DNA from: Parvularculaceae bacterium
GTDB lineage: Bacteria > Pseudomonadota > Alphaproteobacteria > Caulobacterales > Parvularculaceae
Direction of reading: 5' to 3'
Assembly: GCA_965263375.1 (NCBI GenBank)
Contig: OZ253669.1
Coordinates: 1,038,282 to 1,102,281 of the forward strand
Length of the DNA stretch: 64,000 bases
The stretch's first letter is position 1. Each line of letters starts with the position of its first letter. Below, one piece after another: positions 7,418 through 63,083 of this stretch. The notes below the pieces were generated by a model that was not told where the DNA came from, did no database searches, and saw nothing but the letters and a program-made list of their open reading frames with translations. The translations under genes and the position numbers were made by a program.

Positions 7418-7442
7418 TCTTACGGTCTTAGCGATTAGCAAT

Positions 7443-7472: not shown

Positions 7473-7495
7473 ATTTGTTGCTCGTGTTGAAAGGT

Positions 7496-9283: not shown

Positions 9284-9295
9284 GCAAAATCCTTT

Positions 9296-10262: not shown

Positions 10263-10793
10263 ATGCGATTTTCGCGGCAGAATAAACGGTTTATTGGGTT
10301 GATTGCGGCGGCCAGTTTGGGTGCGGGCGTTTTGGGGGCTGGCGCACAAGCACAGGCGGAAACCAAGGACGCTTTAACGGGCGATGATATTCAACGCGTT
10401 CTTGAAACGGCAGGGCTTAGCCCGGCAATGACAGAGGATGCTGCGACCGGCTCGCCTGTCGCACGCGGACAAGCTGGCGCTGTTACTTTTTGGGTGCGCG
10501 CCTTGGGATGCGGCGGCGCGCCCCAAGCTTGCGACACCCTAGTTTTCTTCGCCAATTTCAACTTAGGACGAAGTGTGGCGGATACGGATTATCGCATCGT
10601 CAATCATTATAATGACAGTCAAGTTTTTGGCCGTGCCTATATTATTGAAGGCAAAGACCAGGTTGGGGTTGATTATGTGATTGAGCTTTCGGGCGGCGTC
10701 ACCGAAAATCACCTTTCTGAAAATATCAGTCGGTGGAGTGATGTTATCGCCGCCTTTGTTGAAAGCTTTGCATCAGGTGACACTGGCGTTTAA
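10263..10793 (+). CDS. YbjN-domain-like secreted protein
   Basis: The ATG at 10263 gives MRFSRQNKRFIGLIAAASLGAGVLGAGAQA (signal peptide). The remainder resembles YbjN/putative sensory-transduction-regulator family proteins of alphaproteobacteria. Confidence 0.55.
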   Translation: MRFSRQNKRFIGLIAAASLGAGVLGAGAQAQAETKDALTGDDIQRVLETAGLSPAMTEDAATGSPVARGQAGAVTFWVRALGCGGAPQACDTLVFFANFNLGRSVADTDYRIVNHYNDSQVFGRAYIIEGKDQVGVDYVIELSGGVTENHLSENISRWSDVIAAFVESFASGDTGV

Positions 10794-10822
10794 TCTAGCT
10801 ATAAGCTGGGAAAGCTTACACC

Positions 10823-42527: not shown

Positions 42528-43316
42528 ATGATTAACACCGATAATACGGCTGCTAGCTCATCGTCTTCTCCACTAAGTGGTGCTGGTGGCACGTCATCTG
42601 CCAAAGAATCGGAAAATAGTTTTAATACAGATTTTCAAAGCTTTCTCACGCTTTTAACAGCGCAGCTACGTAATCAAGATCCGCTTACGCCCATGGATTC
42701 AACGCAATTTGTTGAGCAATTGGCGAGCTTCTCAGGCTTAGAACAACAAATTGAAACTAATAAGCTTCTTGAAGAAATGGTGGGCGCTTCAGGTGTTTCT
42801 GAGTTAGAGAACGCCACCCAGTGGATTGGTAAAGAAGTTGATGCGCCCAGCGGGGAAGTCACCTTTTTAGGCGAACCAATCGAAATGAGAATTCCCGCTA
42901 GTGAGAAGGGAGCCCCAAGTGAGATTGTAATGCGTAATAGTACGACTGGGGCGATTGTCCATCAAGCGTCGCTAGCTGAAGGACAAACATCTCATATTTT
43001 TGACGGTAAGCGTGAAGACGGAACTTTTCTGCCAAACGGTAAGTATGAAGTCACTATCAACTATGTGAACGATGATGGCGACATTAGCTCACAAGACCCG
43101 ATTATAAACGCAAAAGTAAATGAGGCGCGTCTTATCGAGGGGTCCTTAAAGTTAGTGCTTGATAATGGTGCGCTAATCGATACCGCTTCAATAAAAGCGG
43201 TTCGTGAGCCTGCTGCTTCCTTGCCAATCGAGGAAGAAAGTGTCGTAGAAAATGATGAAGCTGGCGAGGAAACAGCGGTTGAGCAAGATACTGACAATCC
43301 TGATGTTGCTGCGTAG
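42528..43316 (+). CDS. flgD: flagellar hook capping/assembly protein FlgD
   Basis: 262 aa. FLTLLTAQLRNQDPLTPMDSTQFVEQLASFSGLEQ. Confidence 0.88.
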   Translation: MINTDNTAASSSSSPLSGAGGTSSAKESENSFNTDFQSFLTLLTAQLRNQDPLTPMDSTQFVEQLASFSGLEQQIETNKLLEEMVGASGVSELENATQWIGKEVDAPSGEVTFLGEPIEMRIPASEKGAPSEIVMRNSTTGAIVHQASLAEGQTSHIFDGKREDGTFLPNGKYEVTINYVNDDGDISSQDPIINAKVNEARLIEGSLKLVLDNGALIDTASIKAVREPAASLPIEEESVVENDEAGEETAVEQDTDNPDVAA

Positions 43317-43437
43317 TCGTATCGCAGTCTCGCACTTATTTAACCCGATACATTCTTTATGAAATGAACCAGCATGGGGGCTGGTTTGTGTTATATTAGC
43401 GTTGGTATATGCGATAAATGGTGCGTGAAAAGAAACA

Positions 43438-44070
43438 TTACAGTTTTTGACGCGCAATATTTAAAATAAGAATACTCTGGGCGTCCTCTCCGATCACTGA
43501 CTGAGCTGCTGTTAATAGCTCAGACCGCACATTGTTGAGGTTTTCTTCGGTCAAGATCTTTGATCCGAACGCTCCGCCATTTGACAGCCGAAATAATGCC
43601 TTCAATAAGACATCCCGTAATTTAGGCTCTAAATTATATGCGCTTGATGCGCCGCTTGGAGAAGATTCTATGTTGATATCAAGAACAACAACAAAGCCGG
43701 GGCCATCAGCATTGATGACAGGGACAATAAATTGGCGGCTAAATTTAATAAAGCTTGCTGGGTTGCCGTAAGCTTCTTCCCCTTCGTAATCTTTATCTTT
43801 TCCCTTGTCTTTTTTCTTTTTATCTTTTTTATCACCCTTCTTAGCTTTGTCTTTCTTTTTATCCTTTTTCTTGTCTTTATCCTTCTTTTTATCTTTATCT
43901 TTTTTCTTGTCTTTGTCGCCCTTATCCTTTTTGCCTTCGTCTTTTGTTTTGTCGCCTTCTTCGGCGGTTGCGGCAACCGGTTCCGGCGCTGGTCTCATGG
44001 TTAGGCCAGCATAAGCGCCGCCTGATACCGCGATCACTTGCAAGACAATAGGGAGGATTTTATCGATCAT
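43438..44070 (-). CDS. FliL-like basal-body-associated protein with a K/D-rich low-complexity insert
   Basis: 210 aa with an N-terminal TM helix. About 60 aa of KKDKDKKKDK-type repeats. The C-terminal FIKFSRQFIVPV....VVLDINIE...LEPKLRDVLL resembles the FliL fold. Confidence 0.55.
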   Translation of the reverse strand: MIDKILPIVLQVIAVSGGAYAGLTMRPAPEPVAATAEEGDKTKDEGKKDKGDKDKKKDKDKKKDKDKKKDKKKDKAKKGDKKDKKKKDKGKDKDYEGEEAYGNPASFIKFSRQFIVPVINADGPGFVVVLDINIESSPSGASSAYNLEPKLRDVLLKALFRLSNGGAFGSKILTEENLNNVRSELLTAAQSVIGEDAQSILILNIARQKL

Positions 44071-44072
44071 AA

Positions 44073-44828
44073 TTAAAAAGGTAAAATGCTGTCTAGGGCG
44101 CGTTGGCCGTAACGTGGTTCTTGAACTGCTGAAATTGTTCCGCGGCCGCCATATAGAATGCGTGCGTCCGCAATTTTTTCATAGGTAATCGTATTGCGAC
44201 GAGAAATGTCCTCGCGCCGTATTATGCCCGCCACTTGTAAGTCACGCAGCTCATGATTGACACGGACTTCTTGGCTGCCAGCTACGACCATATGGCCATT
44301 GGGTAAAACATTGACGACCGTCGCCGCGATTTGCAGCGCGATCTTTTCTTCTCGTGTGATAGCGCCATCGCCGCTGCTTGATGAATTTGAGCTCGCGTCA
44401 ATGGCCGGATCTAAGGTTGCATCGCCTGGCAACACCCGAGAGGCGAGGCTAGGTAAACCAAAGAATGACGGTACAGATACGCCTTCATTTGCATCGCGGC
44501 TTCGGTTCGTCTGATTACGCATTTCCGCTTGATCATCAATTTCAATAACAATCGTCACAATATCGCCAACGCCGTTTGCACGGCGGTCTCCGAAAAGGGA
44601 GCTGGGGCCAGACCGCCAAAGCGAACCCGATGCGACGTCCTCTTCGCGGGCAGGTGCAGATGTATGCGCCAACGCGATACGATTTGTTGCCGTTGGGGGC
44701 AGGGCGTAACGCGGCGCCCCAGGTGCGCTGATCGCAGGCCCTTGGCCAAGCGGGTCGACACGGCCAGCACAGGATGCGCTCAAAAGAGCAAAACCAATAA
44801 TGGCGAATTTCGTCGTTTTTAATTTCAT
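44073..44828 (-). CDS. flgH: flagellar L-ring lipoprotein FlgH
   Basis: 251 aa with a lipobox (LLSASC). GSLWRSGPSSLFGDRRA.GVGDIVTIVI. Confidence 0.92.
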   Translation of the reverse strand: MKLKTTKFAIIGFALLSASCAGRVDPLGQGPAISAPGAPRYALPPTATNRIALAHTSAPAREEDVASGSLWRSGPSSLFGDRRANGVGDIVTIVIEIDDQAEMRNQTNRSRDANEGVSVPSFFGLPSLASRVLPGDATLDPAIDASSNSSSSGDGAITREEKIALQIAATVVNVLPNGHMVVAGSQEVRVNHELRDLQVAGIIRREDISRRNTITYEKIADARILYGGRGTISAVQEPRYGQRALDSILPF

Positions 44829-45247
44829 TATTGCGCCCTTACGTGGTTCGCGGCGATAATCTCTGCTGTGACGGTCCGTTTAGATTGTAAATTAAGAACA
44901 CGAATGCGCTCTCCTTTCCCGCCCTCATCAAGTGCTTGAGCTTCGACTTCAATCAACATAGGCCCTTTTTTATAAGTCATCGTTATAATCGCGTTTCTAT
45001 GAATAAGCCGTGGACGCCGGATATCTATCTCGCTAATTGTCTTGCCTTTATAAAGGTTTCGTTCTGCCTCTTTTCCGATCATTGCTGCGGCTCGGCGTAA
45101 ACCGCCAGGAGTTTGAGGGGTAACAAGGTGTGCAGCCGAAATTTTTTCACCGGCGCGTAAACTGCGCGCAACGATGATTTCTTCCGCGGCGGCCTGCGCC
45201 GTCGCGAATGTTAGCGTAATAAGAAAAAGGGCAAGAAAACGTTTCAT
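44828..45247 (-). CDS. flgA: flagellar P-ring assembly chaperone FlgA
   Basis: 139 aa with a signal peptide and a SAF-like segment (...R.L.AGE.IS...L...). Position flgG-flgA-flgH. 1-nt overlap with flgH. Confidence 0.8.
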   Translation of the reverse strand: MKRFLALFLITLTFATAQAAAEEIIVARSLRAGEKISAAHLVTPQTPGGLRRAAAMIGKEAERNLYKGKTISEIDIRRPRLIHRNAIITMTYKKGPMLIEVEAQALDEGGKGERIRVLNLQSKRTVTAEIIAANHVRAQ

Positions 45248-45251
45248 AAAT

Positions 45252-46037
45252 CTATCGAATTTGCGATGCCGCGCCCATCATCTGATCAGCCGCAGAGATA
45301 ACCTTTGAATTTAATTCGTATCCGCGTTGAGCTTCAATCAATTCAGCAATTTGAGATACAACATCAACATTGGACTCTTCCAAATATCCTTGACGCAGCG
45401 TGCCGAGCCCATTTGTTCCTGCTTGTCCGACAACGGGACCGCCAGATGCTTCTGTTTCGCGATAGAGCGTGCCGCCTAAAGGCTCTAAGCCCTTAGCATT
45501 GGGAAATTCAACAAGATTAATGGTGCCCACCAATTGAGCTTGTGCAGAGTTTGCAACTTGGGCGTAAACCTCTCCTTGCGAATTAATAGTAATTGAGCGC
45601 GCGCCATTTGGGAGGGTAATGTTATTTGCGAGTGGATAACCCTCACTGTTAACCATTAATCCTTCGGCCGTGCGTTTAAATGCGCCAGCACGTGTATAGG
45701 CGGCTTCGCCAGTGGGCAGAGTGATTTCAAAAAAGCCGCGTCCTTCAATCGATAAATCAAGATCCCCGCCGGTCTCTTTCAGGGAGCCTTGCGACATTTC
45801 CATTGAGATCGCAGATGTGCGCACACCCAAGCCCAAATGAACGCCTTCAGGAACGACGGATCCGTCTGACGCGGAAGGCGCACCGGACGGCTTGGTCGTT
45901 TGATACATCAGGTCGGAAAATTCAGCCCGCCGAGCCGCATAGGCCGTCGTGTTCATATTCGCTAAGTTATTGGAGATGGTTTCAACGCGGGTCTGTTGCG
46001 CATCCATACCAGTCGCAGCAATACTTAATGCACGCAT
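45252..46037 (-). CDS. flgG: flagellar distal rod protein FlgG
   Basis: 261 aa. MRALSIAATGMDAQQTRVETISNNLANMNTTAY... and C-terminal ...GYLEESNVD.V..I.ELI.AQR.YE.NSKVI. Confidence 0.93.
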   Translation of the reverse strand: MRALSIAATGMDAQQTRVETISNNLANMNTTAYAARRAEFSDLMYQTTKPSGAPSASDGSVVPEGVHLGLGVRTSAISMEMSQGSLKETGGDLDLSIEGRGFFEITLPTGEAAYTRAGAFKRTAEGLMVNSEGYPLANNITLPNGARSITINSQGEVYAQVANSAQAQLVGTINLVEFPNAKGLEPLGGTLYRETEASGGPVVGQAGTNGLGTLRQGYLEESNVDVVSQIAELIEAQRGYELNSKVISAADQMMGAASQIR

Positions 46038-46066
46038 GATTTATTCTCCTTCACTAGTCCTACTTC

Positions 46067-46780
46067 TTATTCCGTCATTTTACGGATTGTATCTTTTATT
46101 CGGTCGTCTTCTTGTTGGAGCATGCGCTGCCCCATTTCATAGGTGCGCTGAACCTCAATCAAATGGGCGATTTCAGTAACAGCATTGACATTTGAACCTT
46201 CAACAGCGCCCTGTAAAAGGCGCGCATCAGTCGCTGGCTCGTAACCTTCTTCAGTGGAAAAGACATTGTCGCCCTCGCGAGTTAAGCTCGCCCGATTGGT
46301 TGTGACCATGCCGATTTGGCCGATCGCTTGTCCATCAGCGCTTAAAGTGCCGTCTGCCGAAGCCGTTATGGCGCTTGTTCCAGCTGGAATAGCTAATGCG
46401 CCGCCGCCATTGTTCAATACACGGAAGCCTTCTTGCGTTGAAAGCTCGCCTTGGCCGTTTAAGGTGAATGAACCAGCGCGGGTTAACCGCTCGCCATTGG
46501 GGGTTTCAACAAGGAAAAACGCGTCACCTTCGATTGCAAAGTCAAGTTTGTTATCGGTGACAGTAACTTCCCCTTGGCTTAAATCGATGATGTGGCGGTT
46601 CATCACCGCCATGGAAAGGCTGGGGTCTTCCATGTCGAGAGCTTTAATATGCTCTGAAAAAGAAGTGGCTTCACGGCGATAGCCCGCCGTGTTTACGTTC
46701 GCAATGTTATTCGCGATTATGTTGAGCTGTTTAAATAACCCAGACTGACGGGTGAGGGCGACATAGCTAGCGTTATCCAT
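46067..46780 (-). CDS. flgF: flagellar proximal rod protein FlgF
   Basis: 237 aa. MDNASYVALTRQSGL...L..IANNIANVNT.GYRRE and C-terminal ...GAVEGSNVN.V.E...LIEVQR.YE. Confidence 0.88.
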   Translation of the reverse strand: MDNASYVALTRQSGLFKQLNIIANNIANVNTAGYRREATSFSEHIKALDMEDPSLSMAVMNRHIIDLSQGEVTVTDNKLDFAIEGDAFFLVETPNGERLTRAGSFTLNGQGELSTQEGFRVLNNGGGALAIPAGTSAITASADGTLSADGQAIGQIGMVTTNRASLTREGDNVFSTEEGYEPATDARLLQGAVEGSNVNAVTEIAHLIEVQRTYEMGQRMLQQEDDRIKDTIRKMTE

Positions 46781-49202
46781 TGCGCAGCGCCTCCTTGATC
46801 ATTTGCAACTCGTCACGCGCTTCTTGGGCTGCAATTTGGCCTTGGTTTAAAACCGATCCTGTTGGTTGATCAGCAAACAGTGCTTTAACGCCATTTAGCG
46901 CCGTACTATCTTCTTTCGTTAAAACAGCTTCAACAATTGCTGGGGGCTTTTCAGCGCCGGTCATATATGAGGAAAGGGCGTATTGAATGGCGGTTTTTTC
47001 ACCAATTAAAACGGGATTTAATGCGGCAAAAGCGCGGTTAGCGCTTTGCCAATCACCGGCGCGCCAAGCCGCTTGCGCCATAAGAACGGCTTTTTTATCC
47101 GATTCTGGTAAAGCCGTCGCCGCGGCGAGGGCGGCGTAGTTTCGTTCAAGCTGAAGGTTCGCTTTAACTAATAACTCTGCAAACGCTGGTTGATCGGCAT
47201 ATGCTGATGCAGTTGATAGCGTTCTGTCTGGAACATCTGCTTTTAGGGCTGCTTGTGCTTTTTGTAAGGAGTAGTCAGCGTTGCCTTGATACGGATTATG
47301 GTGAAGCACCTTAAACGCTACATTCGGCAGCCCGATTTCCATAGCTGTAACTGCTACCGTTTTGCGAAAGGCTGCATCATCATCGGGCGTATCGACAAAG
47401 GAGCGATGGCGCAAATATGCCGATACTGCGGAAATCTTTTTGTTTTGCTTATCATGGCGTAGGGAGTTGGCGATGAGTTCGCGAGATTTCTCAAGCGCCT
47501 TTTGCGCGTATGCCTCATCCTTTTTTGCAAGGCTGCGCAGCATTAAAATTGCCGCCTCTAATTCCCCTTCATTCGCCCAAGCAACCGCTTCTAGGAACTG
47601 TGCTTTAGAGCTGGTTTCAGAACCGCGAGTGGTCGTGGCAACTGCGCCGATATCATCATAAAACCCTTCGTGGGGTTCCTCGCCGTTCGCATATTGTTCC
47701 GCGAGCGCCACAAGTGCGTCTTTCGATGCTTCATTGTCTTTGCCAGCAATGCTCAACAGGGTTTCACGCGAAGAGACGCCATCGCCCTCATGAGCTTGCA
47801 ATTGAGCCTGCACGAAGGTGAGGTCAGGTGAGAATACTTCTGAAACATCTGCGGCAAAATCGAAAAAACGTTGCGCCTGTTCCCAATCGCCTGCTTCCAC
47901 CATTTTTCTGGCGATCCGTGTTGCGATCAATGCTTGCAAGCGTTTTGGTAAGGTTTTTACAGCGTCGCCGGATTGGCGGGCAGGGCCCACCGCGTCTTCT
48001 GGAGTATTTGCGGCCGCTTGCCAAAGGGCGTGAGAATTTTTGCAGTCGATGGCGCTGAGTAAAGGGCCACCTTTAGGCAAGGTCGTTTCAGCAAGCGCGC
48101 GCGCCATATCGGCGCGAATGGTGCGACCGGCGCCATGATCAGATAGTATTGCAAGGGCCTCTTCGCCAAAGCCGATTGATAAAAATCCATCCGCCAATTG
48201 CTCGGCTAAGGCGCGCTGTCCGTCATAATCTGCATGGGCAAGTTCGGTTTGCACTTCAGATATTGCAACAAGCGGCTCGTCCTCAAAAGGCTTGCCATTG
48301 ATTTTGAAAGCTTGCTCAGGATAGCACTCGCCTGGTTTGATTCTTCTTGCTGTCTTCTTTTGCTTACCGCCTGGCAATAACAAGTGATCGGAAAGTTCGT
48401 CAGCGGCTTTTTTGTCGTCCTTGGCGCTGGCTACTTCTTCATATAGCGGAATTTTATCTTTCGCATCATCGCGAATGTTGATCAAACCTTCTTTTGCGGC
48501 TTGGCGAAGCAGGTCGAGCATGCGGTTATGCGCCCGCTCAACTGATAAGAGGTCTTCTTTTTCGTTGTCAGCTTTATCGATCGATATTTCATTGATCGCT
48601 GGTTTAGGCTTATCGATTTTTTTCGGTTCTAAGTTTGAGGGCTCTGTTGATGTCAATGCAGCGGTGATTGCATCAGCGGGCTTTGAAGCTGGTTCAGGGG
48701 CCTTTGGTTTTGGCGTCTGCGCTGGCGTTTGCGTTGGCGTTTGCACTGGCGACTGCGCTGTCGACTGTGCGACTTTCGTGGCGGTTGTGTTCTTTGGAGC
48801 GACATCATTGTCATAAATATCGATAACTATTTTGCCGTTTGAAAGATTTTTGCTCAGGACTTCGCAATCACAAGTCAAAGTTAATGATACAAGCGTCCCG
48901 TTTTCATTAGGGCGTGCGCTTGCATTGAGGACACGATGTGCTTTGCGTCGTTCCAACAAATCAGCCAAGTTTATGTCTGATATATTTGTATCAAGAGAAA
49001 TTTTTATCTGTCGGCCTTGCTGTGTAATAGAAGTATTTTTTGCGTTTGCGGATAATACAACGCGTGAGTATGCACCGTGCTCGCCGGCTGATACCAATAC
49101 TGTCTCAGCGCCATAGGCAGATGAGAAAGATCCCACACAAACAGGAATAGCGGCCCATAGAAGGGCCGCAATTTTAGGGGATGTTGAAAATAGATTACGC
49201 AT
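46773..49202 (-). CDS. large periplasmic hypothetical protein of the flagellar operon (AMIN-like N-domain, P/T/Q linker, helical TPR-like C-terminal region)
   Basis: 809-aa ORF with a signal peptide. The start overlaps the motA stop (TAATG) and the stop overlaps the flgF start by 8 nt. No named flagellar family recognised. Confidence 0.6.
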   Translation of the reverse strand: MRNLFSTSPKIAALLWAAIPVCVGSFSSAYGAETVLVSAGEHGAYSRVVLSANAKNTSITQQGRQIKISLDTNISDINLADLLERRKAHRVLNASARPNENGTLVSLTLTCDCEVLSKNLSNGKIVIDIYDNDVAPKNTTATKVAQSTAQSPVQTPTQTPAQTPKPKAPEPASKPADAITAALTSTEPSNLEPKKIDKPKPAINEISIDKADNEKEDLLSVERAHNRMLDLLRQAAKEGLINIRDDAKDKIPLYEEVASAKDDKKAADELSDHLLLPGGKQKKTARRIKPGECYPEQAFKINGKPFEDEPLVAISEVQTELAHADYDGQRALAEQLADGFLSIGFGEEALAILSDHGAGRTIRADMARALAETTLPKGGPLLSAIDCKNSHALWQAAANTPEDAVGPARQSGDAVKTLPKRLQALIATRIARKMVEAGDWEQAQRFFDFAADVSEVFSPDLTFVQAQLQAHEGDGVSSRETLLSIAGKDNEASKDALVALAEQYANGEEPHEGFYDDIGAVATTTRGSETSSKAQFLEAVAWANEGELEAAILMLRSLAKKDEAYAQKALEKSRELIANSLRHDKQNKKISAVSAYLRHRSFVDTPDDDAAFRKTVAVTAMEIGLPNVAFKVLHHNPYQGNADYSLQKAQAALKADVPDRTLSTASAYADQPAFAELLVKANLQLERNYAALAAATALPESDKKAVLMAQAAWRAGDWQSANRAFAALNPVLIGEKTAIQYALSSYMTGAEKPPAIVEAVLTKEDSTALNGVKALFADQPTGSVLNQGQIAAQEARDELQMIKEALRNG

Positions 49203-50068
49203 TACGCAGCCTGTTTCATTTCCTTCAACGCCTCTTCCATATCGTTGAAGGATGGCCGGACCCCGCGGGGGGCGCTGCGCCGAGCGACCTCAACACAAAT
49301 TTGTGGCGTGTGTTTGTTTAGACTTGCGACCAACGCTTCACGGATCATATTATAAAAGGCGTGATCAGCATCATTGATCGCTTTGACTTTCGCAGCGAAG
49401 GGGCCAACCAGCGCGTAGGCCAAGAAAACGCCAAGAAACGTTCCAACCAAGGCGCCGCCGATCATACCGCCAAGAACCTCCGGTGGCTGATCAATCGACG
49501 CCATGGTTTTGATAACACCCAAAACCGCAGCAACAATGCCAAGCGCAGGCAAGGCGTCAGCCATATTTTGAAGCGCATGGGAGCCATGTTGACTGTCGTG
49601 ATGAAGAGATTCAAGTTGCTTTTCGAGCAGTTCTTCAACCTGATGCACATCGTCAAAGTTCATTATCATTGAGCGAATTGTTTCGCAGATTAGTTCAACA
49701 GCAGCGCCGTCTTTTGATATTTTTGGAAAATTATTGAAAATCGCCGACTCGGCTGGGTTTTCAATATGTTGTTCTATTTCTACCGGACTTTCTTTGGCTA
49801 TTCGGATCAATTCAAACATCAGGCACAATAAGTCCTGATAGTCTTTCTTTTTCCATTTTGATCCGGCGAACACTTTTGCTATATCACCGCCCGTGTGAGT
49901 GATAACGTGCATGTCGTTACTGACGAAGAAGGCCCCTACGGCGGCGCCGCCGATCATCATCATCTCAAAGGGGAGGGATTTTAAGATAATTCCCATCTTA
50001 CCGCCGGCTAGCGTATAGCCGCCGAATACCATTACCATTGTAATGACGATTCCAATGATCGAGACCAT
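49202..50068 (-). CDS. motA: flagellar motor stator protein MotA
   Basis: 288 aa. MVSIIGIVITMVMVFGGY.LAGG..., 4 TM, ...PALGIVAAVLGVIKTM... plug/channel region. Confidence 0.9.
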   Translation of the reverse strand: MVSIIGIVITMVMVFGGYTLAGGKMGIILKSLPFEMMMIGGAAVGAFFVSNDMHVITHTGGDIAKVFAGSKWKKKDYQDLLCLMFELIRIAKESPVEIEQHIENPAESAIFNNFPKISKDGAAVELICETIRSMIMNFDDVHQVEELLEKQLESLHHDSQHGSHALQNMADALPALGIVAAVLGVIKTMASIDQPPEVLGGMIGGALVGTFLGVFLAYALVGPFAAKVKAINDADHAFYNMIREALVASLNKHTPQICVEVARRSAPRGVRPSFNDMEEALKEMKQAA

Positions 50069-50154
50069 ATTGTAAACTCAGTCTTCCACGGATTAAAAAA
50101 CACCTAAAGAACAGATTAAAGCTGTTGGTTTAATATTAGGTGAATGGGAAGGTT

Positions 50155-50904
50155 TTATTCCAAATGAACGTCAGCATTGCGCCCAGCGATAATAACGCTT
50201 GCAGCGTAAGCCTTTTCCGTTTCCATATTGGTCAAAATGAGAGCGGCCGCGTCGCTGTTCATTTCCGTTAGGAAGCCAGCGGCGAAAGAGGGCTCCATCT
50301 GATTGAATATTTCCCCAGCCTTTGCTGGTTTCATCCGTTCATACAGGCCAGCTAGCTGAGTTATGTCTTCACGCGCCAGTTCTTGCGCATAGTTTAACCG
50401 GTCTTCTAGCGCGGCGGTCGCTGCTTCTAGCGAAGCGATTTTTTCTTCGACGCGTTTTTCAATAATCTCTAGAACACGCTTACGCTCAGCAATAGTCGCT
50501 TCGCGCTGATCAAGGGCTTTGCTACGTTGGCGGATTTCAGCCAGCAGTGCGTTATAGTCCTGGGCTGCGAAAGCTAGAGGGTCATATTTTTCATCATACG
50601 CATGCGGCTCTTTTTCAGAGTAATCGCCATCGCTTTCGTCTTTTTCTTTGTCATAATCAGCCTTTTTGGGCTCAGACTTTTTTTCACTTTTTTCGGTGGT
50701 TTTTTCTTTCTGTTTTTTATCGCCGTCTTTGTCGCCTTCTTCGTGCTTATCGGTTTTAGTTTCTTTGGAAGCTTCTTCGGTGTTTGTGGTTTCGCTCGTT
50801 TGCTCAGTTTCACCAGCCATGGCTGCGCTGGCGACATCAGCTATACGCGAGAAGAAGGACGCGGCGAAAATAAAGCCGATAACTAATAGCGGAGTCGGTT
50901 TCAC
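50155..50904 (-). CDS. MotE-like flagellar protein (MgtE_N-like C-terminal region)
   Basis: 249 aa with an N-terminal TM/signal segment, a K/E/D-rich low-complexity region and a coiled coil. The C-terminal ...LYERMKPAKAGEIFNQMEPSFAAGFLTEMNSDAAALIL is MotE-like. Confidence 0.55.
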   Translation of the reverse strand: MKPTPLLVIGFIFAASFFSRIADVASAAMAGETEQTSETTNTEEASKETKTDKHEEGDKDGDKKQKEKTTEKSEKKSEPKKADYDKEKDESDGDYSEKEPHAYDEKYDPLAFAAQDYNALLAEIRQRSKALDQREATIAERKRVLEIIEKRVEEKIASLEAATAALEDRLNYAQELAREDITQLAGLYERMKPAKAGEIFNQMEPSFAAGFLTEMNSDAAALILTNMETEKAYAASVIIAGRNADVHLE

Positions 50905-50907
50905 GAA

Positions 50908-51570
50908 TTATGCTCCTACAGCTGCCTTTTTCGCGCGAGGCGCAGGGGCCGCAACGTCTTCACTAGGCGCGTCATCTAGCTCCACATATGTGGTTTCATC
51001 ATCGATTTCGATGAACTCCATTGCGCCTTCTTCATCATCCTCAGCAGCTTCTTCAGCTGGGGCTTCTTCCTCTGTTTGAGGGGCGGGGGTGTCATCTCCC
51101 AATGTGATAGCACCCTCATCTGACGCAGGGGCGGGGATATCGGCGCCAAGGGTGGATATTTGCTGTTTTGCTTGTTCAATCACTTCGAACAATTTGTCTG
51201 CTGTTGAATTTGCATCATTGATAAACGGCGCCAATTTATCCATATAATCCTGGGTGGACGTTTCTGTTTGAGAAACAACATCATCTTTTATATTGATGAG
51301 CTGGTCGATCAATTTTTGCAAAATTTCAGCTTTTTCATCGGCCGACTTAAGGAGGATATCCATATCCGTCTTTGCACTGTCGGCTGATTGTTTGGTTTGT
51401 TCCAGGGCGGCTTTCATTTCTTCAGCAGATTGTGAAAGCGCAACAACGCTAGCCCCAAGACCATCATTAGTTTTGGTCAGCTTCTTTAGGCGCGTACTAA
51501 GCGCCCAACAGTAAAAACACGCGGCGCCAGAGGCTGCTAGTAATAAAAAATCTGTAACGAGATCCATCAC
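50908..51570 (-). CDS. membrane-anchored coiled-coil protein with acidic tail (uncharacterised, flagellar cluster)
   Basis: 220 aa with an N-terminal TM helix, a helical central region and a D/E-rich C-terminus. Lies between fliL and the motE-like gene. Confidence 0.5.
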   Translation of the reverse strand: MMDLVTDFLLLAASGAACFYCWALSTRLKKLTKTNDGLGASVVALSQSAEEMKAALEQTKQSADSAKTDMDILLKSADEKAEILQKLIDQLINIKDDVVSQTETSTQDYMDKLAPFINDANSTADKLFEVIEQAKQQISTLGADIPAPASDEGAITLGDDTPAPQTEEEAPAEEAAEDDEEGAMEFIEIDDETTYVELDDAPSEDVAAPAPRAKKAAVGA

Positions 51571-51576
51571 GAGTCC

Positions 51577-52095
51577 TTACGTTAAGACAAAGTCAGTTAT
51601 TAATACATCGTTTACCGCTTCTTGGTCGGCGACTATTTGAACACGACGTAACATTTGAGCGCGCAGCCTGTTCATCGATTTTGGATCGGCAAGATCGCTC
51701 TCCTCTACAGCGCGTAAGTAAGTGTTCAATACGTCTCTCAACTTTGGCGCTAACTCTTTAAGTTTTTCTTCATGCTCGCTCGAGGTTTCAAAGGCGATCG
51801 ATATTTTTAGGTATTTCGATTTCGCGCGTGGCCCAAGCGTTACAACCATTGGTTCTAGATTGACAAAAGCGACATCTTCCTCAGCGTAGTAAATATGGTC
51901 TTTAATTTCCTTACTTTCTTCCGGCGCTTTTGCTTGCTTTTCTTCATCGGCTAGAGATTTTTCACCCTCGTCATAACCCTCCTGCATGGCTACGGGCTCA
52001 CAGGCGGTTTGCTTAGAAGGGGCCATATACGCCACAGCGAACGCAACGCCGCCGGCGAGGATTGCAGAGATTGCACCAAAGATCATTGACTGCAT
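51577..52095 (-). CDS. fliL: flagellar basal body-associated protein FliL
   Basis: 172 aa with an N-terminal TM helix. ...FVNLEPMVVTLG......YLKISIAFE......LAPKLRDVLNTYLR... is canonical FliL. Confidence 0.85.
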   Translation of the reverse strand: MQSMIFGAISAILAGGVAFAVAYMAPSKQTACEPVAMQEGYDEGEKSLADEEKQAKAPEESKEIKDHIYYAEEDVAFVNLEPMVVTLGPRAKSKYLKISIAFETSSEHEEKLKELAPKLRDVLNTYLRAVEESDLADPKSMNRLRAQMLRRVQIVADQEAVNDVLITDFVLT

Positions 52096-52294
52096 AGCCT
52101 TCCATCCTACTAAAGATCATTTGAATGCCGAGACATTTTTAAGCTGTCTCTGTTCCAAATGGTCTTAACGCGTTTTTCCGGGGCGCCGAATTGCGAAAAT
52201 CCCCTCAAGCTTTCTTTGTCGCGTCCTCTATCTGTAACCTCCTCTTAATGATCAAATGGTAAATGAAATGACGCGCATGTGAATAAATTGGTTA

Positions 52295-53890
52295 ATGAGC
52301 GCGAAGCGGGCGAATGGTATGCAAGGTTTGTTGTCGGTATGGTCTTCTTTGTCGTTGTCCAAAAGGATTACGCTCGTCGCGGCGGTGTTAGCGACGATTG
52401 GGGCTTTTTCTTTATTAGCGCGCACCGCGTCCAATCCTAGTATGAAGGTGTTATATGCGGGGCTAGATGGTCGCTCTGCTGGTGAAGTCATTTCTGCATT
52501 AGAGCGTTTAAGTATCGATTTTGAAGTTCGTGGTGACGCCATTTATGTACCGGCCAGTCATCGTGATGTGGCGCGTATGACGCTTGCCGGTGAAGGATTA
52601 CCGCAGTCAGGCCAGGCAGGTTACGAGCTTCTTGATCAGCTTAACGGCTTTTCCACCACATCTGATATGTTTGACGCCACATTCTGGCGCGCTAAAGAGG
52701 GCGAGCTTGCAAGAACGATTTTATCAACGCCCGGTGTTTCTTCCGCGCGCGTTCATATCGCCCATGAAAGCGGGGGGCCTTTTGCCCGCAGTGTTGCAGA
52801 GCCTAATGCGGTCGTAACCGTTACGATGGGGCGCGGACAATTAGCGCCATCTCAGGCGAAAGCCATTCAATATCTTGTCGGCGCAGCAGTGCCCGGGATG
52901 GTGCCTGAGAAAGTCGCGGTTCTCGATTCTTCACGCGGCGTTATCTTAAGCCCTGGCGATGAAAGTACTAATCCTGCTGAACATGAGGATATTGGCGGTC
53001 GCGAGCGTAAGATTGAGATGGATATCCTTAATATTCTAGAAGCGCGTGTAGGGGCGGGGAATGCCCGTGTCCAGGTTGCACTTGATATAGACCGTGAGCG
53101 TGAGTCAATTTCGGAGCGTGTGTTTGATCCTGATGGCCGGGTAATTTCTGCTCGTGAGGTGAATGAGGTTACGGAAAGCTCGTCTGGCTCTGGCGGGCAA
53201 TCTGTTACTGTTGCGAGTAACTTACCTGAAGGAGATGACGAAGCGGGGGGCGCAAGATCAAATTCAAATCGTACCGAAACGAGGGAAGTCATTAGCTATG
53301 ACATGTCCGAAGTACGACGCGAACGTGAAAAATTGCCTGGATCTATTCGTCGGTTGAGCATTGCGGTGCTCGTCAATGAAGTTGTGGAACAGCCGGAAGG
53401 CGCCGACGCTGTGTTAAGAGAAGCTGGCGAGTTAGATACGCTAAGGGAGTTGGTGGCGCAGGCCGCTGGTTTTGACGAAGCGCGCGGTGATAGTTTAACT
53501 ATTCAAGCTTTGCCATTCCGCCCACGAAACAATGAAGGCGTTTTAGTGGAAGCCAATCCATTCGCCTCTTTTATGGGGCGGAATTTGATGTCAATTATAC
53601 AGCTTAGCGTTCTTGCTATTGTAACCCTTATTCTGGGACTGTTCGTTGTTAAGCCTGTTCTTGCCAGTCAACCAGCCGATGGCGGATCACTTCCGCTAGA
53701 TGATGAGCTTTCATTTGAACCGCTAGGTCAATTACCGACTTATGATGAAGCTCAATTGGCGCAAGATGATGATATAGGAGCAGTTGATCCGATTGAAACG
53801 CTGCAAGGAATTGCGAGTGAAAAACCGGAAGAGGCGACCGCTCTGTTAAAAGATTGGCTTGACTCTGAAGCAGCGGAGACAGCGGCATGA
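52295..53890 (+). CDS. fliF: flagellar MS-ring protein FliF
   Basis: 531 aa. ...LYAGLD..SAGEVISALE...I.FEVRGDAIYVPAS.....RM.LAGEGLP..G..GYELLD... The start may be the ATG at 52319. Confidence 0.92.
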   Translation: MSAKRANGMQGLLSVWSSLSLSKRITLVAAVLATIGAFSLLARTASNPSMKVLYAGLDGRSAGEVISALERLSIDFEVRGDAIYVPASHRDVARMTLAGEGLPQSGQAGYELLDQLNGFSTTSDMFDATFWRAKEGELARTILSTPGVSSARVHIAHESGGPFARSVAEPNAVVTVTMGRGQLAPSQAKAIQYLVGAAVPGMVPEKVAVLDSSRGVILSPGDESTNPAEHEDIGGRERKIEMDILNILEARVGAGNARVQVALDIDRERESISERVFDPDGRVISAREVNEVTESSSGSGGQSVTVASNLPEGDDEAGGARSNSNRTETREVISYDMSEVRREREKLPGSIRRLSIAVLVNEVVEQPEGADAVLREAGELDTLRELVAQAAGFDEARGDSLTIQALPFRPRNNEGVLVEANPFASFMGRNLMSIIQLSVLAIVTLILGLFVVKPVLASQPADGGSLPLDDELSFEPLGQLPTYDEAQLAQDDDIGAVDPIETLQGIASEKPEEATALLKDWLDSEAAETAA

Positions 53891-54801
53891 CGGGACTATC
53901 GCTCTATTTAGAAAGGTTCGACCGACCAGCTTCCGCTTATGAATTGAGTGCGCAAGAAGAGCGCATGCGTGAGATTGAAGAGGCGCGCTCGCAAGCTTAT
54001 CAAGACGGGGTTGAGGCCGGCCGGGCGCAAGCTGTTGAAGACAGAGAGCAAACCAACGAAACGTTGACGCAAATGTTGGCTTGTTTGGACGCGGAAATAA
54101 ACAACTTGCCAAGTCGTGTGCGATCAGAGGTCGCAGAAATGACGGCTAAAATCGCCGCTGCTATTTTCCCATCGTTTGCGGATGAAAATTTAGCCCGGCA
54201 TTTAATTACCCTTATTGAGCAGATGGGTGAACCTATTGCGGACACTAAAATTAGAATTAAAACCCCGTCTACATATCATAATAAAGTATCAACACTTTTG
54301 GCGGAAGCAGGGTATGAAGACAGAGTTAAGGTCGAAGAGGATGAAACAGCAAGCGGACCAATTGCTGACATTATATGGGCCGATGGCGGAATGAAGGTCA
54401 ATTTTGATGAGGCGATATCGACAGCCATTGAAGCGCTTAATTCGCAACAAACGCCTTGTGCTAATGAAAGCTTTGGTGCAGAAATAATTATAAATAGTGA
54501 TGCCGCAAATGAAGAAGAGTTACCTTCTTTAGGTGATTTTGAGGCTGATGTTCCATCGGGTGCAGAAGAAAATATCGATGAGACTAAGCTTAGCGCTATG
54601 CCTGTAATGGAAGACTTGGCTGACGCTGAGGAGTTATCGTCCGTTGAAGAATTAGACCTTAATTTGGGTGATATCGAAACAATAGATGATGCTGAACCAT
54701 CTGAGGATGAGTTAGAGACCGAAGAAGCTTCACCCATAAATATTGAAATGGCGCCCATTGAAGATTTGGCGTTGGATGACAACGAAGAAGAGGCTATGTG
54801 A
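53887..54801 (+). CDS. FliH-like protein with a long polyacidic C-terminal extension (tentative)
   Basis: 304 aa, located between fliF and fliN (4-nt overlaps on both sides). The N-terminal helical segment (...EEARSQAYQDGVEAGRAQA...) is FliH-like. The last roughly 100 aa are D/E-rich. Confidence 0.45.
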   Translation: MTGLSLYLERFDRPASAYELSAQEERMREIEEARSQAYQDGVEAGRAQAVEDREQTNETLTQMLACLDAEINNLPSRVRSEVAEMTAKIAAAIFPSFADENLARHLITLIEQMGEPIADTKIRIKTPSTYHNKVSTLLAEAGYEDRVKVEEDETASGPIADIIWADGGMKVNFDEAISTAIEALNSQQTPCANESFGAEIIINSDAANEEELPSLGDFEADVPSGAEENIDETKLSAMPVMEDLADAEELSSVEELDLNLGDIETIDDAEPSEDELETEEASPINIEMAPIEDLALDDNEEEAM

Positions 54802-62225: not shown

Positions 62226-63083
62226 TTAACGCTTTGGAGAGTTTTGTTTCAAAAGCGTAATAGATATGCGCCGATTTTGCGGGTCCAACGGATCGTCCGT
62301 TAATGGTTCAGTATCCGCTTTACCTGTCACGGCGCTAATTTGATCAGGCGCGAGGCCTGAGGCGACCATCAATCTGCGTGCTGAGTTCGCACGGTCAGAC
62401 GAAAGCTCCCAGTTGGTGTAGTTTTCGCGAGGTATTGCAAAGCCAGTACTATCGGTATGGCCAACAATTTCCACCTGATTTGTAACAAGACTAACCGCGC
62501 CCGCAACCACTTGAATTAGGCGAACCATTGTTCTTGATGCTTGGAAGGAGCCTGGTTCAAATAACGCTTCGCCATCTGTCTCAACAAGCTCAATCACAAG
62601 GCCTTTTGGCGTTACGCGGGTTTGAATATGTGAGGCGAGACCTTCTTCTTCGCCGGCAAGCGCTTCTTTGATGAGTTGTTCTTGTAAAACGGCAATTTCC
62701 TCAGCCCTTGCCATTGCTTGGGCTTCGAGGTCTTCTTGCGCATCAGCGCCGACTGTGTCTTTTCCTTCTGCGCTTTGATCAAAGGGGGTTTTTGATCCGC
62801 CTGCGCCATCGCGGGCAAGGGTTTTTTCAGAAAAAACGGTTTCCCCGTTTAGGGCGTCTTTGCCGCCGCCTGAAACCTGAATAATAGGAACAGTGGGGTT
62901 AAAGTAATCGGCGATGCCCTTGCGTTGGTCTTCCGTTGTCGCCCCAAGAAGCCACATAAGAAGGAAGAACGCCATCATCGCGGTCACAAAGTCAGCATAG
63001 GCAACTTTCCACGCGCCGCCATGGTGGCCGTCGCCGCCGCCTTTTTTGATTTTTTTAATGATGATCGCGCCAGAATCCGCCAC
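62226..63083 (-). CDS. motB: flagellar motor stator protein MotB
   Basis: 285 aa. ...WKVAYADFVTAMMAFFLLMWLL (plug/TM helix with the conserved Asp) and an OmpA-like C-terminus (...IVGHTDSTG....NWELSSDRANSARR). Confidence 0.88.
   Translation of the reverse strand: MADSGAIIIKKIKKGGGDGHHGGAWKVAYADFVTAMMAFFLLMWLLGATTEDQRKGIADYFNPTVPIIQVSGGGKDALNGETVFSEKTLARDGAGGSKTPFDQSAEGKDTVGADAQEDLEAQAMARAEEIAVLQEQLIKEALAGEEEGLASHIQTRVTPKGLVIELVETDGEALFEPGSFQASRTMVRLIQVVAGAVSLVTNQVEIVGHTDSTGFAIPRENYTNWELSSDRANSARRLMVASGLAPDQISAVTGKADTEPLTDDPLDPQNRRISITLLKQNSPKR

What the first reader, a model, noticed from the sequence alone, without database searches (positions are those of the whole stretch)
46773..49202. 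809-aa periplasmic AMIN-like/TPR-like protein embedded by overlapping codons between motA and flgF
The ORF start overlaps the motA stop (TAATG at 49200-49204). Its stop lies 8 nt inside flgF. It is therefore almost certainly co-translated within a motA-orf809-flgF-flgG-flgA-flgH-fliL2 operon.

Architecture as read from the sequence:
- A signal peptide.
- A roughly 110-aa beta-rich module resembling an AMIN domain (SRVVLSANAKNTSITQQGRQIKISLD...VSLTLTCDCEV...KIVIDIY).
- A P/T/Q/K linker (QTPTQTPAQTPKPKAPEP), encoded by short GGCGT(T/C)TGC-type DNA repeats near 48700-48760.
- About 550 aa of helical repeats rich in A/L/E that look TPR-like or Sel1-like.

It matches no named core flagellar protein I know. 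Its size and position suggest a periplasmic scaffold tied to stator or rod/ring assembly.
Basis: partly seen in the sequence, partly recalled or inferred. Interest (0 to 1): 0.6.

Follow-up and report, generated by a model that had tools for sequence, protein, structure and literature searches.

The report
MotK-type flagellar stator scaffold protein
The 809-residue gene between motA and flgF is real. It is an unannotated member of the recently described MotK/PflA family of periplasmic proteins that help the flagellar motor's stators work, so it is a sound call but not a new kind of thing.

Summary
An 809-aa ORF (46773-49202, minus strand) starts on the motA stop (TAATG) and ends 8 nt inside flgF. 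It has a Sec-type signal peptide, a roughly 100-aa beta domain, a roughly 155-aa disordered P/T/K-rich linker and a roughly 520-aa TPR-like solenoid. Part of the linker is encoded by a 12-bp tandem repeat.

The N-domain model (pLDDT 91.6) has the AmiC and PilQ AMIN domains as its two best PDB matches, at marginal E-values. The full model's best match is a 773-residue chain of the Campylobacter jejuni flagellar scaffold, probably PflA.

Pfam and NCBIfam give no hit, but the family is large (2,763 clusters at 50% identity). A profile comparison links it over 565 columns (99.6%) to the gene downstream of motA in Leisingera, a roseobacter. That gene sits in the position of Phaeobacter CP4, which is essential for motility, and of Cereibacter sphaeroides MotK. 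MotK (2024) is periplasmic, AMIN-plus-TPR, gives paralysed flagella when lost, and binds MotE and MotB. Recent papers already equate MotK with PflA spokes and MotE with the E-ring.

The N-domain occurs in 148 of 198 FlgI-positive but only 4 of 103 FlgI-negative alphaproteobacterial genomes. Verdict: a new member of a known kind, of modest interest.

The parts
46773..49202 (-). 809-aa MotK-family gene (P0001), stop codon included
49110..49202 (-). Sec-type signal peptide, residues 1-31 (n-region R2/K10, h-region 9-27, AYG|AE)
   Evidence: Hydropathy and inspection. The N-termini of homologues are alike. No dedicated predictor was available.
48804..49106 (-). AMIN-like beta-sandwich domain, residues 33-133, with conserved motifs SAGEHxxYSR, RRKAHRV and a CxC (C111, C113)
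   Evidence: AF2 model pLDDT 91.6. The two best PDB fold matches are AmiC 4bin and PilQ B2 4aqz. Distant homologues reach Pfam AMIN PF11741.
48333..48803 (-). Disordered P/T/K/A-rich linker, residues 134-290 (pI 9.0)
   Evidence: pLDDT below 50 over residues 148-288. Composition. Length varies among homologues.
48711..48767 (.). 12-bp tandem DNA repeat (4.2-4.8 copies) encoding the (Q/A)TP repeats of the linker
   Evidence: P0002 lacks 8 residues here.
48492..48545 (-). Conserved amphipathic helix inside the linker, residues 220-237 (SVERAHNRMLDLLRQAAKEGL)
   Evidence: Helix in the model. Invariant A224, M228, L231, L232, A235, A236, G239. Retained in homologues that lack the AMIN domain.
46776..48332 (-). 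TPR-like alpha-solenoid, residues 291-809, with conserved C293, GFGEEA (344-349) and C387
   Evidence: pLDDT 80-94. Fold matches to 9hmf_K, the OGT TPR domain, SPY and others. Conservation.
49202..50068 (-). motA (stator). Its stop overlaps the ORF start.
50155..50904 (-). MotE-like gene (MgtE_N; weak match to the FlbB collar model), the expected partner (E-ring family)
   Evidence: Equivalence with MotE/FlgY/FlbB is taken from PMC13023049.
50908..51570 (-). PflI-like gene (DUF6468, sub-threshold), at the position of Phaeobacter CP2
   Evidence: Position as in PMC10954123 and PMC12363192.
51577..52095 (-). fliL, first gene of the co-oriented run
44073..46780 (-). flgF-flgG-flgA-flgH. flgF starts 8 nt before the end of the ORF.
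62226..63083 (-). motB (MotB_plug plus OmpA), the expected binding target
   Evidence: The MotK-MotB2 interaction is from PMC10954123.

Best explanation
The ORF encodes the Parvularculaceae orthologue of MotK. Positional or proposed relatives are CP4 in Phaeobacter, Dshi_3259, more distantly CC_2058, and PflA of Campylobacterota by structure.

**Proposed mechanism**
1. The protein is exported by Sec into the periplasm. This is inferred from the signal peptide.
2. Its N-terminal AMIN-fold domain contacts peptidoglycan or a partner. This is inferred by analogy and has not been shown for any MotK.
3. Its long flexible linker, with one conserved helix, and its TPR superhelix bind the MotE dimer and the periplasmic part of MotB. 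MotE belongs to the E-ring family. These interactions were shown in vitro for C. sphaeroides MotK and are inferred here from orthology.
4. The protein therefore acts as a radial scaffold or spoke that recruits, positions or activates MotA/MotB stator units around the rotor.

Loss should give assembled but paralysed flagella.

The gene is probably made from the same transcript as motA and flgF. Its start and stop codons overlap theirs, which suggests translational coupling.
For: **Anatomy**
- Signal peptide, beta domain, disordered linker and TPR-like solenoid.
- The N-domain model has pLDDT 91.6 and pTM 0.82. Its two best PDB matches are the canonical AMIN structures: AmiC 4bin (E = 1.5e-3, TM 0.56) and PilQ B2 4aqz (E = 1.9e-3, TM 0.66). 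The MotK paper reports the same two hits for MotK (PMC10954123).
- The full model's best PDB match is 9hmf_K of the C. jejuni periplasmic scaffold (E = 4.8e-7, aligned end to end), followed by TPR proteins.

**Homology**
- hhalign of the family profile against the ORF directly downstream of motA in Leisingera gives 99.6% and E = 1.5e-23 over 565 columns, covering both domains. That MotA is in the same 90% cluster as Phaeobacter inhibens MotA.
- The same profile against a Sulfitobacter protein gives 98.8%.
- UniRef names the Amphiplicatus orthologue an AMIN domain-containing protein.

**Context**
- fliL-pflI-motE-motA-X-flgF-flgG-flgA-flgH is conserved in all 26 long Parvularculaceae loci fetched.
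- Distant relatives lie in flagellar clusters downstream of motE.
- The N-domain profile hits 148 of 198 FlgI-positive and 4 of 103 FlgI-negative alphaproteobacterial genomes.

**Function (from the literature)**
- motK mutants are flagellated but paralysed. MotK is periplasmic, binds MotE and MotB2, and its polar localisation needs MotA2/MotB2 (PMC10954123).
- CP4 transposon mutants are immotile yet still export FliC, FlgE and FlgK (PMC12363192).
- MotK and CC_2058 are proposed PflA homologues, and MotE a FlgY/E-ring homologue (PMC12054838, PMC13023049).
Against: - No direct comparison with C. sphaeroides MotK (Q3IY86) or CC_2058 was possible, because their sequences could not be retrieved. 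The link runs through roseobacter proteins that the MotK paper calls homologues.
- Pfam AMIN and TPR models do not hit this protein itself. The fold-search E-values for AMIN are marginal (about 1e-3), and small heat-shock beta-sandwiches follow closely.
- Peptidoglycan binding has not been shown for any MotK.
- Positional orthologues in another family of the same order, and in one genus of the same family, lack the AMIN domain altogether. That domain therefore cannot be essential to the core function.
- There are no expression or phenotype data for this organism.
- TM-scores of the full model are low (0.23), because the orientation between domains is undefined (pTM 0.48).
Confidence: 0.8

Rival explanations
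1. It is a rod, P-ring or L-ring assembly factor. The AMIN domain would target it to peptidoglycan at the site where the rod penetrates, and the TPR part would chaperone FlgF, FlgG, FlgI or FlgH. This would explain why its stop lies inside flgF.
For: The ORF overlaps flgF by 8 nt and precedes flgG-flgA-flgH. AMIN domains target septal or remodelled peptidoglycan in AmiC (established knowledge). The Phaeobacter CP4 mutant shows a reduced set of exported flagellar proteins (PMC12363192).
Against: In roseobacters the homologue is followed by sltF and flhA, not flgF. In the CC_2058-type clusters it follows motE. The constant neighbour is therefore motA or motE, not the rod genes. MotK mutants assemble filaments and export normal amounts of hook protein (PMC10954123). 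CP4 mutants still export FliC, FlgE and FlgK.
Confidence: 0.08
2. It is a general envelope AMIN/TPR protein, for example a factor for cell division, pili or outer-membrane tethering. On this reading it merely sits in the flagellar cluster and has no motor role.
For: AMIN and TPR are generic modules. There is no Pfam or NCBIfam family hit. Four of 152 genomes with the N-domain lack FlgI.
Against: Synteny is strict and the codons overlap flagellar genes. Co-occurrence with FlgI is 148 of 152, odds ratio 73 (not corrected for phylogeny). Relatives have motility phenotypes in three species (PMC10954123, PMC12363192).
Confidence: 0.04
3. It is a soluble periplasmic regulator or client of the MotE chaperone, in the manner proposed for MotC in Sinorhizobium. 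It would act transiently on MotB to open the proton channel and would not be a fixed structural spoke.
For: MotE was first described as a MotC chaperone. MotC and MotK are both TPR proteins and are proposed to be homologues (PMC13023049). AMIN-less versions exist, so a wall anchor is not obligatory.
Against: MotK-sfGFP localises to the flagellated pole, and MotE stability depends on MotK rather than the reverse (PMC10954123). PflA, the structural analogue, is a fixed spoke in situ (PMC12222027).
Confidence: 0.08

Closest known systems
MotK of Cereibacter sphaeroides Fla2 (RSP_1318 / RSWS8N_12065, UniProt Q3IY86; Velez-Gonzalez et al. 2024, PMC10954123)
   Same: It is the gene immediately downstream of motA in a fliL-pflI-motE-motA-motK run. 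It has a Sec signal peptide, an N-terminal AMIN-like beta domain whose best matches are AmiC then PilQ, proline-rich disordered regions, a TPR-like helical part, and no Pfam domain.
   Different: MotK is 652 aa against 809 aa here. Sequence similarity to MotK itself was not measured here. Homology was shown only to roseobacter proteins in the same position. The organism belongs to a different order (Parvularculaceae, Caulobacterales in the GTDB sense).
CP4 of Phaeobacter inhibens (PGA1_c35690; PMC12363192) and its Leisingera and Sulfitobacter orthologues
   Same: Similar length (about 740-820 aa). Full-length profile similarity (99.6% and 98.8%). The four cysteines are at equivalent positions. 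It lies downstream of motA and is essential for swimming.
   Different: In roseobacters the gene is followed by sltF-flhA rather than flgF. Pairwise identity is only about 20-23%. The paper calls CP1-4 specific to Rhodobacterales, and the present locus does not fit that claim.
PflA of Campylobacter jejuni and Helicobacter pylori (spoke of the periplasmic stator scaffold; PDB 9HMF; PMC12222027, PMC12054838)
   Same: Same layout: signal peptide, N-terminal beta-sandwich, unstructured linker and TPR superhelix. It is the best PDB fold match of the full model. Loss gives a paralysed-flagellum phenotype. It partners with a MotE/FlgY-type E-ring protein.
   Different: No sequence similarity was detectable. 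PflA works with PflB, which was not looked for here. That chain K is PflA is inferred from its length (773 residues = 16-788). TM-scores are low.
CC_2058 of Caulobacter crescentus and the roughly 1,000-1,400-aa AMIN-TPR proteins downstream of motE in many Alphaproteobacteria
   Same: The N-terminal domain is homologous at the HMM level (E = 1e-5 to 1e-14 per genome with the full profile, and down to 1e-31 with the domain profile). They have TPR tails, sit in flagellar clusters, and a Mot- phenotype is reported for CC_2058.
   Different: They are larger, often carry two tandem AMIN-like domains, and lack the CxC motif. They lie after motE rather than motA. The TPR parts do not align with this family at the thresholds used.
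AMIN domains of AmiC (4BIN) and PilQ (4AQZ), Pfam PF11741
   Same: Same beta-sandwich fold by Foldseek, the top two matches. Distant family members score above the Pfam AMIN cut-off (32.9 bits against 20.5).
   Different: This protein itself does not reach the Pfam model. It has no amidase or secretin module. Peptidoglycan binding is untested.

Membership tests
MotK family (PMC10954123) | Gene directly downstream of motA in a fliL-pflI-motE-motA operon of an alphaproteobacterial flagellar cluster of the type C. sphaeroides calls fla2 | tested here: met
   Gene order fliL, DUF6468 (PflI-like), MgtE_N (MotE-like), motA, ORF809. The same order is found in all 26 long related loci.
MotK family (PMC10954123) | Sec signal peptide and periplasmic location | tested here: inconclusive
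   The sequence has a typical n/h/c region with AYG|AE, and the N-termini of homologues are alike. No signal-peptide predictor or experiment was available.
MotK family (PMC10954123) | N-terminal eight-stranded AMIN-like domain | tested here: met
   AF2 pLDDT 91.6. The best PDB matches are 4bin (AmiC) and 4aqz (PilQ B2). E-values are marginal (about 1e-3).
MotK family (PMC10954123) | Disordered proline-rich region followed by TPR-like helices | tested here: met
   pLDDT below 50 over residues 148-288. The solenoid (291-809) matches TPR proteins.
MotK family (PMC10954123) | Sequence homology to C. sphaeroides MotK itself | not tested
Homology was shown instead to roseobacter proteins in the same position, which the MotK paper states are MotK homologues.
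MotK family (PMC10954123) | Mot- (paralysed, flagellated) phenotype; binding to MotE and MotB; polar localisation | not testable with these tools
   These need genetics and biochemistry.
PflA-like spoke proteins (Campylobacterota) | Beta-sandwich, linker and TPR superhelix architecture | tested here: met
   9hmf_K is the best full-length fold match, E = 4.8e-7. It is also listed for the N-domain alone, E = 0.06.
PflA-like spoke proteins (Campylobacterota) | Detectable sequence homology to PflA, and a PflB rim partner | tested here: not met
   No PDB chain matches the sequence or the profile up to E = 10. PflB was not searched for. Homology remains a structural inference, as in PMC12054838.
Pfam AMIN (PF11741) | Score above the gathering threshold | tested here: not met
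   No hit for P0001 at E <= 0.01. It is met only by distant relatives (the L082 ORF at 32.9 bits and the L075 ORF at 22.7 bits).
Pfam TPR clan | Score of any TPR model | tested here: not met
   No hit for P0001. The repeats are degenerate and the TPR assignment rests on fold.

The most novel reading that the evidence does not exclude
The four cysteines are the only ones in the mature protein and are near-invariant across the motA-linked subfamily. They are a CxC in a strand of the AMIN domain, plus C293 and C387 at the start of the TPR part. They may form a disulfide or redox element that governs how the scaffold engages MotE and the stator. MotE itself dimerises through a disulfide. If so, stator recruitment in these motors would depend on periplasmic oxidative folding or on redox state.

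More broadly, the AMIN-TPR protein would be an ancestral, near-universal alphaproteobacterial motor part. It is found in 75% of FlgI-positive genomes. It has been remodelled repeatedly, with the AMIN domain lost in some lines and duplicated in others.
Probability: 0.12. Interest if true: 0.5.

Novelty: new member of a known kind. Interest (0 to 1): 0.25.

Why it matters
The gene is annotated everywhere as a hypothetical or TPR protein, and no Pfam or NCBIfam model covers it. Yet the family has about 2,800 clusters at 50% identity. Its N-domain is present in three quarters of flagellated Alphaproteobacteria sampled.

Recognising it as MotK-type does three things:
- It gives a name and a testable role (stator scaffold, partner of MotE and MotB) to a conserved flagellar gene in Parvularculaceae.
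- It shows at sequence level that MotK-type and CC_2058-type proteins share one N-terminal domain. Earlier work had only compared predicted structures.
- It shows that counterparts of the Phaeobacter CP genes at the CP2, CP3 and CP4 positions are not confined to Rhodobacterales.

It does not change the current picture of the motor.

Tried and rejected
- **Pfam and NCBIfam scans of the protein.** Nothing at E <= 0.01.
- **Sequence and profile searches of PDB chains.** One chance hit at E = 0.45, and nothing for the profile up to E = 10.
- **Word-indexed homologue search with the single protein.** Only 9 hits, all Parvularculaceae-like. The exhaustive profile search was needed to see the family.
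- **Attempts to reach C. sphaeroides MotK.** I tried names from cluster look-ups and two alignment-seeded searches. These reached Amphiplicatus, Sulfitobacter, Leisingera and Phaeobacter, but not Cereibacter.
- **CtrA-box scan (TTAA-N7-TTAA).** Three matches in the window, none in the flagellar region, and no more than chance.
- **Promoter and terminator scan of 43000-52400.** Counts were at or below shuffled expectation, so there is no evidence for or against internal signals.
- **Lipoprotein reading.** Rejected, because C22 is not in a lipobox (IPVC) and is not conserved.
- **Chance ORF reading.** Rejected on conservation (54% mean column identity over 10 sequences) and on model confidence.
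Full report
**Observation**

The window holds an 809-codon ORF on the minus strand at 46773-49202.
- The minus-strand sequence around the start reads gcgTAATGcgt, so the ATG shares one base with the TAA of the upstream gene.
- At the other end the sequence is cAATGGATAAcg, so the downstream gene's ATG lies 8 nt before the end of the ORF's stop.
- The upstream gene is motA (TIGR03818, 363 bits). The downstream genes are flgF, flgG, flgA and flgH, followed by a 210-aa protein that weakly resembles FliL.
- Upstream of motA, on the same strand, lie a MotE-like gene (MgtE_N; weak match to the spirochaete FlbB collar model), a DUF6468 gene and fliL.
- The region from about 31 to 63 kb is a complete alphaproteobacterial flagellar cluster. 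It includes flhA, fliI, flbT, flaF, flagellin, fliK, flgD, fliF, fliN, fliP, fliG, flgI, flgL, flgK, flgE and motB.

**Anatomy of the protein**

- **Signal peptide.** The only strongly hydrophobic stretch is residues 9-27. It is preceded by R2 and K10 and followed by AYG|AE, a typical Sec signal peptide.
- **Full-length model.** An AlphaFold2 model built on ten homologues has mean pLDDT 73.8. It shows eight main beta strands between residues 35 and 130, and a segment from 148 to 288 with pLDDT below 50 that contains one helix (220-237). About thirty helices follow from 296 to 807 with pLDDT mostly 80-94.
- **Linker.** It is rich in K, A, P, D and T and is basic (pI 9.0). The rest of the protein is acidic.
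- **DNA repeat.** Part of the linker is encoded by a 12-bp tandem repeat at 48711-48767. A 97%-identical relative lacks exactly eight residues there, so the repeat number varies.
- **Cysteines.** The mature protein has only four: C111, C113, C293 and C387. All four are invariant in the ten-sequence alignment. In a 45-sequence alignment of distant members, C387 is invariant and the other three are conserved in at least 90% of sequences.

**Folds**

- **N-terminal domain.** Residues 31-142 were modelled alone on a 37-sequence alignment drawn from across the class. The model has pLDDT 91.6 and pTM 0.82.
- **N-domain matches.** Its two best matches among PDB chains are E. coli AmiC (4bin) and the B2 domain of Neisseria PilQ (4aqz). 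These are the two reference AMIN structures. The E-values are marginal (1.5e-3 and 1.9e-3; TM 0.56 and 0.66), and small heat-shock beta-sandwiches follow.
- **Full model matches.** Its best match is chain K of 9HMF, the Campylobacter jejuni periplasmic flagellar scaffold (E = 4.8e-7, aligned over the whole length). Many TPR superhelices follow, including OGT, SPINDLY, Ctr9, IFT and APC subunits.
- **Identity of chain K.** It has 773 residues, which fits PflA residues 16-788. PflB was modelled from residue 113. That chain K is PflA is an inference from length.
- **PflA architecture.** PflA is described as an N-terminal beta-sandwich joined by an unstructured linker to a 16-TPR superhelix (PMC12222027).

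Neither Pfam AMIN nor any Pfam TPR model reaches this sequence.

**Relatives**

- A word-indexed search found only nine close homologues, annotated as hypothetical proteins of Parvularculaceae or unclassified MAGs.
- An exhaustive profile search of 1.84 billion representatives found 2,763 proteins at E <= 1e-3 and 2,112 at E <= 1e-10. Most are 700-900 aa and match from the N-terminus to about profile position 675.
- Named loci from species genomes are Parvularculaceae: Marinicaulis, Amphiplicatus, Hyphococcus and Parvularcula. UniRef calls the Amphiplicatus protein an AMIN domain-containing protein.
- In every one of the 26 loci long enough to judge, the order fliL, pflI-like, motE-like, motA, this gene, flgF, flgG, flgA, flgH and the 210-aa gene is kept.

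**Link to characterised proteins**

- **Finding MotK.** A literature search found that Velez-Gonzalez et al. (2024, PMC10954123) named the gene downstream of motA2 in the Cereibacter sphaeroides fla2 cluster motK.
- **What MotK is.** It is 652 aa, with a signal peptide, an eight-strand N-terminal region whose best structural templates are AmiC and then PilQ, proline-rich disordered regions and a TPR-like remainder. It had no conserved domain and no previously reported homologue.
- **What was shown for MotK.** Mutants are flagellated but paralysed. MotK is periplasmic, binds MotE and MotB2 in vitro, stabilises MotE, and localises to the flagellated pole in a way that depends on MotA2/MotB2.
- **Homologues named in that paper.** The authors note homologues in Paracoccaceae and Roseobacteraceae. 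From predicted structure only, they also propose distant ones such as Dshi_3259 and CC_2058 of Caulobacter, whose mutant is Mot-.
- **Phaeobacter inhibens.** There the same position is occupied by CP4 (PGA1_c35690). It is essential for swimming, and its mutants still export FliC, FlgE and FlgK (PMC12363192).

I could not retrieve the C. sphaeroides sequence, but I could test the roseobacter link.
- A class-wide genome search returned a locus with fliL, pflI-like, motE-like, motA, an 816-aa ORF and flhA.
- Its MotA is a Leisingera protein in the same 90% cluster as P. inhibens MotA.
- The ORF's close relatives are Phaeobacter, Tritonibacter and Epibacterium hypothetical proteins.
- hhalign of the Parvularculaceae profile against this ORF gives 99.6% probability and E = 1.5e-23 over 565 columns. 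The alignment spans the beta domain, the linker helix, the GFGEEA motif and most of the solenoid.
- A Sulfitobacter protein gives 98.8% over 624 columns.
- The four cysteines align in all of these.

**Wider distribution**

*Distant matches*
- Across 301 alphaproteobacterial genomes, the full profile found only N-domain matches outside the close relatives. These lay in ORFs of about 800-1,400 aa.
- Of the 20 regions fetched, 18 were in flagellar clusters. The usual layout is flgH-flgA-flgG-flgF diverging from fliL ... motE ... this ORF ... fliP, which is the Caulobacter-like arrangement of CC_2058.
- Many of these proteins carry two tandem copies of the domain. Some score on Pfam AMIN above its cut-off (32.9 bits against 20.5), on the AMIN-like model below its cut-off, and on TPR models.
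- This ties the N-domain to AMIN at sequence level by transitivity. It also ties MotK-type and CC_2058-type proteins together at HMM level.

*Co-occurrence with flagella*
- A profile of the domain alone hits 152 of 301 genomes, and FlgI is present in 198.
- 148 genomes have both, 4 have the domain without FlgI, 50 have FlgI without a detected domain, and 99 have neither. The odds ratio is 73 and Fisher p = 8e-36, uncorrected for phylogeny.

*Variants among close relatives*
- All but one of 41 genomes have FlgI, but only about half show the domain.
- Where I looked, some flagellar clusters with the same gene order carry a shorter gene between motA and flgF. It is 584 aa in one family (start and stop overlapping as here) and 625 aa in another genus.
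- These shorter proteins keep the signal peptide, the linker helix, the C293 and C387 equivalents and the solenoid, but have no beta domain. The profile match covers positions 184-628 (88.9%, E = 2.4e-6).
- The AMIN-like domain is therefore dispensable in some lineages and duplicated in others. The linker helix and the first part of the solenoid are the constant core.

**Mechanism**

The best-supported reading is that this is a MotK orthologue. It would be exported to the periplasm and held near the wall or a partner by its beta domain. Its linker and TPR part would bind the MotE dimer and the periplasmic region of MotB, so that stator units are recruited, positioned or activated around the rotor.
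- **Shown in other organisms:** periplasmic location, MotE and MotB binding, polar localisation and the paralysed phenotype (PMC10954123); immotility of CP4 mutants (PMC12363192).
- **Inferred here:** all of these for this protein, by orthology, plus peptidoglycan binding, which is untested even for MotK.
- **Parallel with Campylobacterota:** PflA spokes bind the FlgY E-ring and hold the PflB rim that scaffolds the stators. Tachiyama et al. 2025 (PMC12054838) and a 2026 review (PMC13023049) already state this parallel. They propose that MotK, MotC and CC_2058 are PflA homologues and that MotE, FlgY and FlbB form the E-ring. My fold search reproduces that resemblance independently but adds no sequence-level support for it.

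Co-transcription and translational coupling with motA and flgF are inferred from the overlaps only.

**Rivals**

- **Rod or ring assembly role.** The overlap with flgF suggests it. However, the constant neighbour across lineages is motA or motE, not the rod genes. Mutants of relatives also assemble filaments.
- **Generic envelope protein with no motor role.** Synteny, co-occurrence and the published phenotypes contradict this.
- **Transient MotC-like regulator rather than a fixed spoke.** This cannot be excluded without imaging.

**Novelty and verdict**

Its relation to PflA and the E-ring has been discussed in 2025-2026 papers.

What this analysis adds is incremental:
- a member in Parvularculaceae with full-length homology to roseobacter CP4/MotK-type proteins;
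- an HMM-level link between MotK-type and CC_2058-type N-domains;
- variants without the AMIN domain and with tandem copies;
- four conserved cysteines;
- evidence that counterparts of the genes at the Phaeobacter CP2, CP3 and CP4 positions exist outside Rhodobacterales, contrary to a statement in PMC12363192;
- the fact that no Pfam or NCBIfam model covers a family this large.

I class it as a new member of a known kind, with interest 0.25.

Noticed in passing
window 50155-51570 and 46773-49202; L069 (Leisingera) 6525-11286: PMC12363192 states that the conserved proteins CP1-4 occur only in fla1-type clusters of Rhodobacterales. This Parvularculaceae window has sequence-similar counterparts at the CP2 (PflI-like), CP3 (MotE-like) and CP4 (this ORF) positions. 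tblastn against the Leisingera locus gives 1e-7, 2e-26 and 4e-7. A DUF1217 gene next to flbT (37024-37866) sits at the CP1 position, judged by position only.
   Followed up: partly
L092 16946-18700; L010 1369-3246: Positional orthologues between motA and flgF in another family of the same order (584 aa) and in another genus of the same family (625 aa) lack the AMIN-like domain. They keep the signal peptide, the linker helix, two cysteines and the TPR part.
   Followed up: partly
L072, L075, L082, L081, L083, L086 (ORFs of 880-1,326 aa): The distant, CC_2058-type relatives often carry two tandem copies of the AMIN-like domain, and they lack the CxC motif found in the motA-linked subfamily.
   Followed up: partly
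window 48865-48873, 48322-48324 and 48040-48042 (codons of C111, C113, C293, C387): The only four cysteines of the mature protein are invariant or nearly so across 45 diverse family members. AMIN-less homologues keep only the second pair, which suggests that C293 pairs with C387 and that the CxC has a separate role.
   Followed up: no
window 48711-48767: The 12-bp repeat number in the linker differs between this genome and a 97%-identical relative (P0002 lacks PVQTPTQT). This is a length polymorphism in a disordered spacer.
   Followed up: partly
genomes G003, G005, G010, G015, G016 (relatives): Several Parvularculaceae genomes carry two FlgI genes and so probably two flagellar systems. Some same-genus genomes (G004, G006) have FlgI but no detectable member of this family. 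Cluster type therefore varies within the genus.
   Followed up: partly
window 43438-44070: The last gene of the run is a 210-aa protein with a roughly 60-aa K/D-rich tract. It is only weakly similar to FliL (BLASTP E = 3e-5) and has no Pfam FliL hit. It is conserved downstream of flgH in all related loci.
   Followed up: partly
window 53887-54801: The 304-aa ORF between fliF and fliN, at the FliH position, has no Pfam hit at E <= 1e-3. It is only weakly conserved in related loci (tblastn 1e-5 to 1e-16).
   Followed up: no
L018 (JAJFMM010000135.1); P0260: A 4.4-kb contig binned as a Chlamydiae MAG carries a Parvularculaceae-type motE-motA-MotK-flgF locus. A protein labelled Nocardioides marinus is 72% identical to the Leisingera MotK-type protein. 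Both look like binning or contamination errors in public records.
   Followed up: no
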